Positions 22,561 through 24,452 of a DNA stretch of 64,000 nt are shown one piece after another. Each line of letters opens with the position of its first letter. Position 1 is the stretch's first letter. The stretch lies in sequence record PX441839.1. The stretch is one strand, 5' to 3'. A program made the translations under genes and the position numbers. Below the pieces are notes generated by a model, which had not been told where the DNA came from, did no database searches, and saw only the letters and a list, made by a program, of their open reading frames with translations. This stretch comes from a phage.

Positions 22561-23208
22561 ATGCTTGAAATTTTAACATCCTCTGGAACAAGGCCACCAG
22601 AGGACGAGGTTCTTTTCCTTTTTGATGCAGAGATGCAAAATGAAGGAGATACCGTGATGATTGACCAAGTATCCAAGAACACCCTAGCCCAGCGCCTGGC
22701 GACTTACGCTGGACATCCGTCATATCCCAACAGGATAGTAAACCATGCGGATTACGGAATGGTATTCTCACTTGGTGGGAACTTTTACCATTGGACTTCA
22801 AACTGGTTCAAGCCCCCTGAGAATATACCACCAGGAAAGAAACTGGTGTATCAGATTGAGTTTGCCTCCCCTGTCACAGGGTATTGTTTTGGAACAGGTG
22901 GTCACTTAACAGGGAGCACATGGTGGTTAGGCTTAGAAATTAGCAAGTCAACAACATACGGTATGACCCTAATATCCAGCAGAACATCATCTTCTGGAGC
23001 TTCTACAACCATCCCAGGAGATAACCTGATGCAGGATATCCGTGTTGAGTACATAACAAACACAACTATTCTTGCAAGAAGGGAAGGTTTTTCTGGAACG
23101 GGTGGTCCTTACACTCATGATCATAACTTTTTCACGAATATCTATATTTTTGGTGGACCACGGGATGCATCCGGTATGGGACAGCCAGAACTTTATACGG
23201 AAACCTGA
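22561..23208 (+). CDS. hypothetical protein (about 215 aa)
   Basis: ORF track 22414..23208; ATG (MLEILTS) after AGGAGG. Confidence 0.5.
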   Translation: MLEILTSSGTRPPEDEVLFLFDAEMQNEGDTVMIDQVSKNTLAQRLATYAGHPSYPNRIVNHADYGMVFSLGGNFYHWTSNWFKPPENIPPGKKLVYQIEFASPVTGYCFGTGGHLTGSTWWLGLEISKSTTYGMTLISSRTSSSGASTTIPGDNLMQDIRVEYITNTTILARREGFSGTGGPYTHDHNFFTNIYIFGGPRDASGMGQPELYTET

Positions 23209-23239
23209 AAAGAGTTAAAGTTTCTTTGGAGAAAAGATA

Positions 23240-23608
23240 ATGAATTACCTTTTAAAGTACAAGAAGTATATTTTCGGGGCAACATTGGCTATTTTGATAA
23301 TTCTGTCTGCGAATATGTACATCAGTTCGGTAGATAAGAAGGCCCACGCTAGAGGTTTTGAAGAGGCAAACTCTGCATGGATGGTCAAAGGAAGGCAATA
23401 CGTTGATCTCTTGGACCAGTCGTACAAAGAAAATAGAGAACTGAATTACGAATTGAACAAGGCAACCAGGCAGGATGCTAAGAAGGACCAAGATAGAAGG
23501 TCTAAGACTGCCGCCGCTCAAGTTGACCTTGCAAGAGATCCTTCTGCTAATTCCAAAACCGTCAGTGACAAGTTTGTAGATCTCTATAACGTATCTTTGG
23601 GGGAATAA
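23240..23608 (+). CDS. putative i-spanin (inner-membrane spanin component)
   Basis: N-terminal transmembrane helix FGATLAILIILSANMYI then charged coiled-coil region; directly followed by a lipoprotein gene. Confidence 0.45.
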   Translation: MNYLLKYKKYIFGATLAILIILSANMYISSVDKKAHARGFEEANSAWMVKGRQYVDLLDQSYKENRELNYELNKATRQDAKKDQDRRSKTAAAQVDLARDPSANSKTVSDKFVDLYNVSLGE

Positions 23609-23928
23609 TGAAGAAGAGATTCTTAGGGGTTATCCTTGCCTCGGTAATCATAATGGGTTGCTCAAATAATAAAGAGATTCCAGATGTTCAGTTGGCAGAA
23701 ATTACAACCGAGAAATTGATAGACAAGCCCAATCCAGAGTTAATGGAGGATTTACCTCAGAAGACAAAACTGGAAAGAGGTATGAGTGAAGGAGAGGTTG
23801 GGGAAATTATCAGCAACAATAACCTTCGTGCAGGGACCATAGAATGGAAATATGAAGCACTCCAGCAGTATGTCTGCAACATATTTAAAGAACCTGTCGG
23901 AGAGGTTTGTACAAAAGGAGATAATTAA
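23608..23928 (+). CDS. putative o-spanin (outer-membrane lipoprotein)
   Basis: lipoprotein signal LGVILASVIIMGC with lipobox Cys; ATGA overlap with upstream gene. Confidence 0.45.
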   Translation: MKKRFLGVILASVIIMGCSNNKEIPDVQLAEITTEKLIDKPNPELMEDLPQKTKLERGMSEGEVGEIISNNNLRAGTIEWKYEALQQYVCNIFKEPVGEVCTKGDN

Positions 23929-24452
23929 TGCTTGAGATGATGATTGCAAAAGGGGGTGAAAAATCATCAGGTTCTCCTATGGACTATGCTCAGTTTTTAA
24001 ATTGGTTGCAGAATAACAATATAAGGGCTGTTACAGCAAGAAGATCCTCAGAGGAGAGAGTTCTCCCTATACAGGAAGCCCTTGAATTCACATACTCAGC
24101 AGGTACATTCATAGAGAGCGGAACCATGTGGGGAAGCCCCTACTCCACTAGGGTGACGTATGACTCAATGTGGCAGTATGTGGCGCGACACTGTTTTCCA
24201 AACTTATCTTTATATGAAAGAGAGCGGCAGGTAAACAGGCTGGTTCTTCTTAAGAAAACAGCCACGGTCAATTATCCAGACTATATATCGGTAAACCGGA
24301 ACGGTTTTCAGAGTGCCAGTTATGGCAATTACCTTGGATTTTTCGTTACACATTTTGTTTATTATGATGAATCGTCTAAACTGATGAGGGTAGTAAAACC
24401 ATCTCAAGGTTATATTGGGAGTGGTGCCCTTTTTACAGGCGAGTTCGACTAA
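23928..24452 (+). CDS. hypothetical protein (174 aa)
   Basis: ORF track; ATGA overlap with o-spanin; no catalytic motif recognised. Confidence 0.45.
   Translation: MLEMMIAKGGEKSSGSPMDYAQFLNWLQNNNIRAVTARRSSEERVLPIQEALEFTYSAGTFIESGTMWGSPYSTRVTYDSMWQYVARHCFPNLSLYERERQVNRLVLLKKTATVNYPDYISVNRNGFQSASYGNYLGFFVTHFVYYDESSKLMRVVKPSQGYIGSGALFTGEFD

What the first reader, a model, noticed from the sequence alone, without database searches (positions are those of the whole stretch)
22561..24452. Spanin pair flanked by unknown proteins, with no recognisable endolysin
An i-spanin-like gene (N-terminal transmembrane helix plus coiled coil) and an o-spanin-like lipoprotein gene (lipobox IMGC) overlap by ATGA, but the flanking proteins (215 aa and 174 aa) show no lysozyme, amidase or peptidase motif I could recognise. 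One may be an endolysin of an unfamiliar family, or the endolysin lies outside the window.
Basis: partly seen in the sequence, partly recalled or inferred. Interest (0 to 1): 0.45.

Follow-up and report, generated by a model that had tools for sequence, protein, structure and literature searches.

The report
Phage spanin pair; endolysin encoded elsewhere
This is the ordinary outer-membrane-disrupting (spanin) gene pair of an rV5-like phage, sitting next to the DNA-packaging gene as already described for this phage group; the cell-wall enzyme lies elsewhere in the genome, and nothing suggests either neighbouring gene is one.

Summary
Window 22561-24452 carries four co-oriented genes: a 215-aa ORF, an i-spanin (one N-terminal TM helix), an o-spanin (lipobox IMGC, Cys18) and a 174-aa ORF. 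The gene junctions are TAATG, not ATGA. The 215-aa ORF has lost its conserved C-terminus through a 1-nt deletion; intact relatives are 225-230 aa.

The window is a Vequintavirinae myophage, closest to Salmonella phage SSBI34. For this subfamily the literature (PMC7344957) already reports that Rz/Rz1 sits next to the large terminase, outside any lysis cassette. No window ORF of 70 aa or more has a peptidoglycan-hydrolase domain. SSBI34 encodes a signal-peptide SleB-like hydrolase with an overlapping 2-TM holin candidate at 107 kb, and an M15 peptidase at 15 kb. Both lie outside the span the window covers.

Neither flanking protein looks like an endolysin. The upstream one falls in a "virion structural protein" family. 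Its positional counterparts, phiTE_203 and CB7_251, were detected in virions by mass spectrometry. The downstream gene is a clean insertion that the nearest relatives lack.

Side observation: both flanking proteins, and several unrelated accessory proteins, share the N-terminal tag M-L-E-x-L/M.

The parts
22488..22510 (+). Terminator-like hairpin plus T-run ending the upstream tRNA cluster
   Evidence: 9-bp stem, 6 GC pairs; sequence.
22516..22544 (+). Sigma-70-like promoter (TTGGCA-17-TAGAAT) ahead of the four-gene unit; RBS AGGAGG at 22551-22556
   Evidence: 10 of 12 matches; sequence. This is a consensus match only.
22561..23208 (+). Upstream flanking ORF, 215 aa as read. It is a frameshifted copy of a 225-230 aa family (PHROG 6011 'virion structural protein'), with no TM segment or signal peptide and N-terminal tag MLEILT. 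The intact frame would run to 23242.
23173..23186 (+). Site of the 1-nt deletion (GGTATGGG-ACAGCC) that shifts the frame and removes the conserved C-terminal LYGxLKxVKV strand
   Evidence: DNA alignment with the metagenome relative; repaired translation; protein alignments.
23240..23608 (+). i-spanin (Rz-like), 122 aa, with a single N-terminal TM helix at 11-29 and no cysteine
   Evidence: PHROG 4297, 5.6e-18; hydropathy; homologues annotated 'Rz-like spanin' in phiTE, CR8 and PBES02 RefSeq records; 66% identical to the SSBI34 copy.
23608..23928 (+). o-spanin (Rz1-like) lipoprotein, 106 aa, with lipobox IMGC, Cys18, Ser at +2 and two further Cys (90, 101)
   Evidence: PHROG 1267, 2.5e-21; 79% identical to the SSBI34 copy.
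23928..24452 (+). Downstream flanking ORF, 174 aa, PHROG 6409 (unknown function), N-terminal tag MLEMMI. It is an accessory insertion absent from the nearest relatives.
   Evidence: (homologues only in jumbo Erwinia/Serratia/Salmonella/Proteus phages), and 86 (clean insertion between the o-spanin stop and the shared terminator).
24461..24497 (+). Hairpin (AAGCCCC...GGGGCTT) plus T-run closing the unit. It is near-identical in SSBI34, and a terminator is annotated at the same place in phiTE.
24560..26044 (+). Large terminase subunit (context: conserved right-hand neighbour of the spanins in this subfamily)

Best explanation
The region is the late 'spanin operon' of a Vequintavirinae (Certrevirus-like) myophage.

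The 122-aa inner-membrane i-spanin and the 106-aa outer-membrane lipoprotein o-spanin carry out the last step of lysis. They bridge the periplasm and disrupt the outer membrane once the peptidoglycan has been removed.

In this subfamily the lysis genes are dispersed. The spanins sit immediately upstream of the large terminase gene. The muralytic enzyme is encoded tens of kilobases away. It is a Sec-exported SleB-like Hydrolase_2 protein with an overlapping 2-TM holin candidate, and some members also carry a T5-type M15 peptidase. In this phage that position falls outside the 64-kb window.

The two flanking genes are not endolysins.
- The upstream gene occupies a variable slot that is translationally coupled to the i-spanin. 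In relatives (phiTE_203, CB7_251, the SSBI34 216-aa protein) the slot holds a roughly 215-aa ConA/LamG-like protein found in virions. The window's version belongs to a different, very small family (PHROG 6011). It is probably also a lectin-like beta-sandwich, and here it is frameshifted.
- The downstream 174-aa gene is a moron-like insertion shared with jumbo phages. Its function is unknown.

Shown here: spanin identity, the absence of hydrolase domains in the window, the location of endolysin candidates in the closest relative, the insertion, and the frameshift.
Inferred: that this phage's own endolysin is the SleB-like or M15 homologue, and that the flanking proteins are virion-associated.
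For: Taxon and synteny:
- The window is 94-97% identical to SSBI34 on both sides of the unit.
- The spanins lie directly upstream of TerL in SSBI34, phiTE, CB7 and a metagenome relative. In several other Vequintavirinae records the i-spanin homologue lies at the end of a record whose first gene is TerL.

Spanins: PHROG matches 5.6e-18 and 2.5e-21, plus the TM helix and the lipobox.

Literature: PMC7344957 states that in CB7, rV5 and PVP-SE1 the Rz/Rz1 pair is not in a lysis cassette but next to the large terminase. It names a SleB-like signal-peptide hydrolase plus an adjacent class II holin candidate as the lysis enzymes.

SSBI34 endolysin candidates:
- Hydrolase_2 PF07486, 9.5e-23, and PHROG 938 'endolysin', 1.3e-26, at 107343-107864, with an N-terminal signal-like sequence.
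- An overlapping 76-aa ORF with 2 TM segments.
- Peptidase_M15_4, 6.7e-10, at 14896-15306.

Window: none of about 80 ORFs of 70 aa or more has a hydrolase domain, and tblastn with both SSBI34 enzymes finds nothing.

Flanking proteins:
- CB7_251 is 'MS/MS confirmed'.
- pTE203 is the most abundant unassigned virion protein in the phiTE mass spectrometry (PMC11972413).
- The SSBI34 slot protein matches Laminin_G_3 at 1.6e-8.
- The 174-aa gene is absent from SSBI34 and from the metagenome relative.
Against: - The window's own genome is not in the collections. The location and identity of its endolysin are therefore inferred from a relative, not seen.
- Both AlphaFold models are low confidence (pLDDT 44 and 36). 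Fold-based exclusion of a novel hydrolase is weak, and for the 174-aa protein it says nothing.
- The link between the window's 215-aa family and the MS-detected LamG-like slot proteins is marginal. BLAST finds nothing, and Pfam finds no LamG domain in any member of the family.
- CB7_251 was detected with a single peptide.
- The 174-aa family has no experimental data. Deimos-Minion gp288/289 are not among the proteins listed as MS-detected in PMC6690015.
Confidence: 0.85

Rival explanations
1. One of the flanking proteins (215/226 aa or 174 aa) is the phage's endolysin, from a family not yet described.
For: - It is adjacent to, and translationally coupled with, the spanins.
- Neither protein has an assigned function.
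- The 174-aa family has invariant polar residues (E3, D79, S80, H88, R124, N125, D147) that could in principle be catalytic.
- The structure models are too poor to exclude a new fold.
Against: - No hydrolase signal appears in Pfam, PHROGs, NCBIfam or PDB profile searches.
- Neither protein has a signal peptide, SAR domain or TM segment, and no holin is nearby.
- The 174-aa gene is missing from the closest relatives, which keep the spanins.
- The upstream slot holds a sequence-unrelated, virion-detected LamG-like protein in SSBI34, phiTE and CB7.
- The slot appears empty in CR9: SSBI34's annotation notes cite consecutively numbered CR9 genes (279, then 280/281) for the genes on either side of it.
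- Homologues of the 215-aa protein sit elsewhere: after the DNA polymerase in KE23, and in a jumbo phage.
- The window copy is frameshifted.
- Relatives already carry canonical endolysin candidates.
Confidence: 0.04
2. The flanking proteins are lysis accessory factors, such as regulators of spanin function or lysis timing, and not virion proteins.
For: - There is a single promoter-to-terminator unit with TAATG-coupled junctions.
- In the metagenome relative the 226-aa gene's stop also overlaps the i-spanin start. In SSBI34 the slot gene overlaps the i-spanin by 8 nt.
Against: - The slot is filled by unrelated sequences in different relatives and appears empty in CR9.
- Slot proteins were detected in purified virions in two studies.
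- Members of the same families lie far from spanins in KE23 and PCH45.
- Neither protein has a membrane or periplasmic targeting signal.
Confidence: 0.08
3. The flanking genes have no role in either the virion or lysis. The upstream ORF is a decaying pseudogene, and the 174-aa gene is a horizontally acquired moron, for example a host-takeover or anti-defence factor, that landed in a permissive site.
For: - The frameshift removes a conserved C-terminal strand.
- The 174-aa gene is a clean insertion just before a terminator.
- Its homologues occur only in distantly related jumbo phages, next to replication and transcription genes.
- There is no MS evidence for the family.
Against: - The frameshift may be a sequencing error in a G-run. 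The rest of the ORF is intact and 60-73% identical to full-length relatives.
- The shared N-terminal tag with MS-confirmed virion proteins CB7_55 and CB7_251 suggests a common fate.
Confidence: 0.2

Closest known systems
Rz/Rz1-like spanins of Certrevirus and other Vequintavirinae (CB7_252/253, phiTE_204/205, CR8, PBES02; PHROGs 4297 and 1267)
   Same: The lengths match (about 122 and 105 aa). Both have an N-terminal TM helix and a lipoprotein signal respectively. The stop and start codons overlap. The pair sits immediately upstream of the large terminase and apart from the endolysin.
   Different: The sequences have diverged: 66% and 79% identity to SSBI34, and about 40% to CR and phiTE copies. 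In this phage an extra 174-aa gene lies between the o-spanin and the terminator.
Phage T4 PseT.3/PseT.2 'separated' two-component spanins (my own knowledge; also cited in PMC7344957)
   Same: These are two separate genes, not an embedded pair, and they are not located in a holin-endolysin cassette.
   Different: No sequence similarity was tested or claimed here. T4's endolysin (e) and holin (t) belong to different families from the SleB-like and M15 candidates of this subfamily.
phiTE_203 / CB7_251 / SSBI34 QYC52506 (PHROG 34570; Laminin_G_3-like virion protein)
   Same: It occupies the same slot directly upstream of the i-spanin, has the same size (214-216 aa) and the same N-terminal M-x-E-x-L motif. 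It shows weak profile similarity to the window's protein over the N-terminal 100-170 residues.
   Different: There is no BLAST similarity. The PHROG differs (6011 vs 34570). No Pfam LamG hit is found for the window family. Virion detection exists only for the phiTE and CB7 proteins.
SleB-like Hydrolase_2 endolysin with adjacent class II holin candidate (CB7_83/82, CR3_087, SSBI34 QYC52587); PVP-SE1gp146 as a biochemically characterised endolysin from a phage of the same subfamily (PMC3352856)
   Same: This is the enzyme class that the spanins most likely work with.
   Different: It is not present in the window, and neither flanking protein resembles it.
Capsid-targeting sequence of T4 internal proteins (analogy only; my own knowledge)
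   Same: A short conserved N-terminal peptide is shared by otherwise unrelated, hypervariable accessory proteins that end up in the virion.
   Different: The motif differs (MLExL vs MKTYQEFIAE). No evidence for cleavage or head location exists here. Several tagged proteins are lectin-like or glycine-rich domains, which are more typical of tail appendages.

Membership tests
Two-component spanin (i-spanin/o-spanin, Rz/Rz1-like) | The i-spanin has a single N-terminal transmembrane helix with the bulk of the protein in the periplasm | tested here: met
   One hydrophobic segment at residues 11-29 (Kyte-Doolittle 1.92), preceded by K6, K8 and K9. The rest of the protein is hydrophilic.
Two-component spanin (i-spanin/o-spanin, Rz/Rz1-like) | The o-spanin is a small outer-membrane lipoprotein: signal sequence, lipobox with invariant Cys, and no Asp at +2 | tested here: met
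   MKKRFLGVILASVIIMGC|SNN: lipobox IMGC, Cys18, Ser19.
Two-component spanin (i-spanin/o-spanin, Rz/Rz1-like) | The two genes are adjacent, overlapping or embedded, on the same strand | tested here: met
   TAATG junction at 23606-23610, the 'separated' type.
Two-component spanin (i-spanin/o-spanin, Rz/Rz1-like) | Sequence homology to annotated spanin families | tested here: met
   PHROG 4297, 5.6e-18, and PHROG 1267, 2.5e-21, both near full length. Homologues are named 'Rz-like spanin' in RefSeq.
Two-component spanin (i-spanin/o-spanin, Rz/Rz1-like) | Helical or coiled-coil periplasmic domain of the i-spanin, with C-terminal interaction between the two proteins | not tested
   No coiled-coil or complex prediction was run.
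Two-component spanin (i-spanin/o-spanin, Rz/Rz1-like) | Required for outer-membrane disruption at lysis | not testable with these tools
   This needs genetics (spherical-cell phenotype of knockouts).
Endolysin (any known peptidoglycan hydrolase family), applied to the 215-aa and 174-aa proteins | A recognisable catalytic domain (lysozyme, transglycosylase, amidase, peptidase or Hydrolase_2) | tested here: not met
   - Pfam: no relevant hit. The only match is a sub-threshold FtsH_ext hit on the 174-aa protein.
- PHROGs: 'virion structural protein' for the 215-aa protein and 'unknown function' for the 174-aa protein.
- NCBIfam: none.
- PDB profile search: nothing relevant.

Endolysin (any known peptidoglycan hydrolase family), applied to the 215-aa and 174-aa proteins | A fold related to known muralytic enzymes | tested here: inconclusive
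Endolysin (any known peptidoglycan hydrolase family), applied to the 215-aa and 174-aa proteins | An export route: signal peptide or SAR domain, or an adjacent holin | tested here: not met
   Neither protein has a hydrophobic segment (maximum KD19 0.63 and 0.55). The i-spanin is the only plausible membrane protein in 21400-24600; the one other ORF with a hydrophobic segment is a 41-aa reading in the terminator/promoter gap at 24477, judged spurious.
Endolysin (any known peptidoglycan hydrolase family), applied to the 215-aa and 174-aa proteins | Conserved across relatives as an essential lysis gene | tested here: not met
   The 174-aa gene is absent from SSBI34 and the metagenome relative. The 215-aa family has 8 representatives among 1.84 billion proteins and is replaced or relocated in relatives.
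Endolysin (any known peptidoglycan hydrolase family), applied to the 215-aa and 174-aa proteins | Muralytic activity | not testable with these tools
   This needs a zymogram or turbidity-reduction assay.
Concanavalin A-like lectin/glucanase superfamily (Laminin_G_3, PF13385), applied to the 215-aa protein | A match to the Pfam model above threshold | tested here: not met
   There are 0 Pfam families for the window protein and for 8 family members. The SSBI34 protein in the same slot does match (1.6e-8).
Concanavalin A-like lectin/glucanase superfamily (Laminin_G_3, PF13385), applied to the 215-aa protein | Profile-profile or structural similarity to family members | tested here: inconclusive
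   - hhalign to the SSBI34 protein: Prob 69%, E 4e-5.
- hhalign to the 3-sequence alignment: Prob 45%.
- hhalign to other LamG_3 'tagged' proteins: only the N-terminus aligns.

The most novel reading that the evidence does not exclude
The two genes flanking the spanins belong to a previously undescribed class of interchangeable accessory proteins, marked by a conserved N-terminal hexapeptide: M-[L/Q/N/F]-E-x-[L/M]-[L/T/M/I/S].

The tag heads at least six sequence-unrelated families of 160-280 aa proteins. They include ConA/LamG-like, glycine-rich and unknown folds, in Vequintavirinae and in jumbo Erwinia, Serratia, Salmonella and Proteus phages. Two tagged proteins, CB7_55 and CB7_251/pTE203, were detected in virions.

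The tag could be a docking or incorporation signal that lets different cargo or adhesin modules plug into one site on the virion.

The left recombination breakpoint between this phage and SSBI34 falls exactly at the end of the tag codons (window 22577). This suggests the tag also marks the boundary for cassette exchange.
Probability: 0.3. Interest if true: 0.55.

Novelty: already known. Interest (0 to 1): 0.15.

Why it matters
For the finding as stated it matters little. It is a correct spanin annotation in a phage subfamily whose dispersed lysis genes are already documented, and there is no sign of a new endolysin family.

It has two practical uses. It shows that this phage's lysis enzymes should be sought near the helicase/RNA-ligase region and near the ribonucleotide-reductase region of the full genome. 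It also flags a probable frameshift or sequencing error at about 23181.

The side observation could matter more. If a shared N-terminal tag really directs diverse lectin-like modules into the virion, it would point to where the abundant but unassigned phiTE virion protein pTE203 might sit. It would also offer a handle for engineering host-range or cargo modules in rV5-like therapeutic phages.

Tried and rejected
- **AlphaFold2, 215-aa protein (6-sequence alignment):** pLDDT 44. Used only as a weak hint.
- **Word-indexed homology searches:** 5 homologues for the 215-aa protein and 1 for the 174-aa protein. A third search with the 2-sequence profile added nothing.
- **Exhaustive HMM search with the 215-aa family:** only 8 representatives, none with a Pfam domain.
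- **PDB profile searches for both families:** nothing.
- **IMG/VR scans:** no relative of the 174-aa protein and one of the 215-aa family. The multi-sequence 174-aa alignment was too divergent to scan.
- **Exact-protein look-ups to recover the window's own genome:** failed. Only the SSBI34-identical gene was found.
- **Tested whether the two flanking proteins are homologous to each other, to CB7_55, or to the other LamG_3 'tagged' proteins:** only the N-terminal 11-24 residues align.
- **Looked for a pseudo-ToxI RNA like the one just upstream of phiTE_203:** absent.
- **Looked for MS evidence for the 174-aa family in Agricanvirus proteomics:** none reported.
- **SSBI34 206-aa protein (14265-14885):** considered as a lysozyme-like candidate and rejected. 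It is DprA-like.
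Full report
**What is there.**
The window is part of a Vequintavirinae (rV5/Certrevirus-like) myophage. Megablast of 20000-28000 finds Salmonella phage SSBI34 (MZ520832, 141 kb) as the closest record. The two are 94-97% identical up to window 22577 and again from 24460 onward. In between, only the spanin genes align, at 75.5%.

The reported region is therefore exactly a swapped cassette relative to the nearest relative. It holds four + strand genes:
- 22561-23208, 215 aa
- 23240-23608, 122 aa
- 23608-23928, 106 aa
- 23928-24452, 174 aa

Upstream lie a cluster of ten or eleven tRNA genes, a terminator-like hairpin (22488-22510) and a promoter-like site (22516-22544). Downstream lies a hairpin plus T-run (24461-24497) that is near-identical in SSBI34. 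A terminator is annotated at the equivalent place in phiTE. The large terminase (24560-26044) and the portal follow.

**The spanins are real.**
The 122-aa protein matches PHROG 4297 'Rz-like spanin' (5.6e-18). The 106-aa protein matches PHROG 1267 'Rz-like spanin' (2.5e-21). Both matches are near full length.

The first has a single hydrophobic helix at residues 11-29. The second has the lipobox IMGC with Cys18 and Ser at +2, which is compatible with outer-membrane sorting. tblastn finds i-spanin homologues in 35 phage records. Several RefSeq records name them 'Rz-like spanin'.

**Where the endolysin is.**
[quoted passage not shown] It names the peptidoglycan-degrading candidates as:
- a SleB-like hydrolase with a signal peptide (CB7_83; its homologue CR3_087 is implicated in lysis), plus an overlapping class II holin candidate (CB7_82);
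- a T5-type peptidase (CB7_190), replaced by a lysozyme-like protein in other members.

I confirmed this in SSBI34.
- QYC52587 at 107343-107864 matches Hydrolase_2 (9.5e-23) and PHROG 938 'endolysin' (1.3e-26). It begins with a signal-like sequence.
- An unannotated 76-aa ORF with two hydrophobic segments overlaps its stop codon by ATGA.
- A 136-aa Peptidase_M15_4 protein (6.7e-10) lies at 14896-15306.

The window corresponds to roughly 21-85 kb of SSBI34, so both genes fall outside it.

Within the window, Pfam scans of essentially all ORFs of 70 aa or more gave no lysozyme, amidase, transglycosylase or peptidase domain. tblastn with both SSBI34 enzymes gave only noise. The gp25-like baseplate protein at 47667-48191, called 'tail lysozyme' in CB7, is a structural baseplate wedge protein.

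**The upstream gene.**
Its family is tiny. It has five close homologues of 225-230 aa, and only eight representatives among 1.84 billion proteins. All members end in a conserved ...LYGxLKxVKV... strand.

The window copy lacks one base near 23181. Restoring it yields a 226-aa protein with that ending, and its TAA overlaps the i-spanin ATG. In the metagenome relative the 226-aa gene, i-spanin and o-spanin are coupled in the same way, and no fourth gene is present.

The family matches PHROG 6011 'virion structural protein' (6.4e-5 for the window copy; 1.8e-8 for P0004; 1.2e-15 for a PCH45 jumbo-phage member). It has no Pfam domain.

In SSBI34, phiTE and CB7 the same slot holds a protein with no BLAST similarity. 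That protein matches Laminin_G_3 (1.6e-8) and PHROG 34570. CB7_251 is flagged 'MS/MS confirmed', on one peptide. pTE203 is cited as the most abundant virion protein left unassigned in the phiTE cryo-EM study (PMC11972413).

In the Seunavirus KE23 the homologue lies after the DNA polymerase, not by the spanins. In CR9 the slot appears to be empty. I conclude, tentatively, that this is a lectin-like accessory virion protein and not an endolysin.

**The downstream gene.**
It matches PHROG 6409, of unknown function (5e-31). Homologues occur only in jumbo Erwinia, Serratia, Salmonella and Proteus phages, at 28-37% identity, and sometimes as tandem paralogues.

It is absent from SSBI34 and from the metagenome relative. 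It is a clean insertion of about 524 nt between the o-spanin stop and the shared terminator.

No profile, PDB or fold evidence is available. No MS evidence was found. Because close relatives that retain the spanins do without it, it cannot be the endolysin those spanins depend on.

**Side observation.**
Both flanking proteins start with MLE(I/M)(L/M). The same N-terminal hexapeptide heads:
- the SSBI34, phiTE and CB7 slot protein;
- CB7_55, an MS-confirmed protein that is otherwise unrelated;
- three tandem SSBI34 genes just downstream of the DNA polymerase (LamG_3, Gly_rich_2, PHROG 4474);
- three genes in a 10-kb stretch of the jumbo phage PCH45.

Profile comparisons align only this N-terminus between the families. 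Glu3 is one of only three invariant columns in the 15-sequence family alignment. Scaling the per-position motif probability to the number of genes gives well under one tagged gene start expected per genome; two to four are seen.

The left breakpoint of the cassette swap with SSBI34 lies right after these codons. This may be a docking or incorporation tag for exchangeable virion accessory modules. I found no description of it in the papers searched. The evidence is circumstantial and post hoc.

**Verdict.**
The spanin observation is correct and ordinary. The 'missing' endolysin is explained by the known dispersed lysis-gene layout of this subfamily, and it lies outside the window. The hypothesis of a novel endolysin in the flanks is not supported.

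Noticed in passing
window 22561-22578 and 23928-23945; also L001 8564, L003 39237-41476, L008 5001-8574, L018 6133-6849: A conserved N-terminal hexapeptide, M-[LQNF]-E-x-[LM]-[LTMIS], heads at least six sequence-unrelated families of 160-280 aa accessory proteins. These occur in Vequintavirinae and in jumbo Erwinia, Serratia, Salmonella and Proteus phages. Two members (CB7_55, CB7_251/pTE203) are MS-detected in virions. It may be a virion docking or incorporation tag.
   Followed up: partly
window 23173-23186: A one-base deletion relative to all homologues shifts the frame of the upstream gene and removes its conserved C-terminal strand. It is either a sequencing error in a G-run or a real truncation.
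   Followed up: yes
window 22577 and 24460: The whole reported region is a recombinant cassette relative to SSBI34. The flanks are 94-97% identical, the spanins only 75.5% at nucleotide level, and the upstream gene is unrelated. The left breakpoint falls just after the first six codons of the upstream gene.
   Followed up: yes
L006 7117-7347 (- strand) = SSBI34 107116-107346: An unannotated 76-aa ORF with two hydrophobic segments overlaps the stop of the SleB-like hydrolase gene by ATGA. It is a class II holin candidate equivalent to CB7_82.
   Followed up: partly
window 20173-22361: A cluster of tRNA genes, interrupted by an HNH endonuclease gene (20451-20966) and a 132-aa ORF. ARAGORN and Rfam each list ten but disagree on one: Rfam adds 20348-20426, and ARAGORN adds tRNA-Tyr 21458-21544.
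   Followed up: no
L017 2392-2450 (phiTE) vs window 22362-22560: phiTE carries the pseudo-ToxI antitoxin-mimic RNA immediately upstream of phiTE_203, the gene preceding its spanins. The window has no such sequence or repeat at the equivalent place.
   Followed up: yes
L003 39237-40079 (- strand) = SSBI34 about 93236-94078: A 280-aa ORF (PHROG 4474, 2.2e-65) carrying the MLE tag is not annotated in the SSBI34 record. It is the third of three tandem tagged genes downstream of the DNA polymerase.
   Followed up: partly
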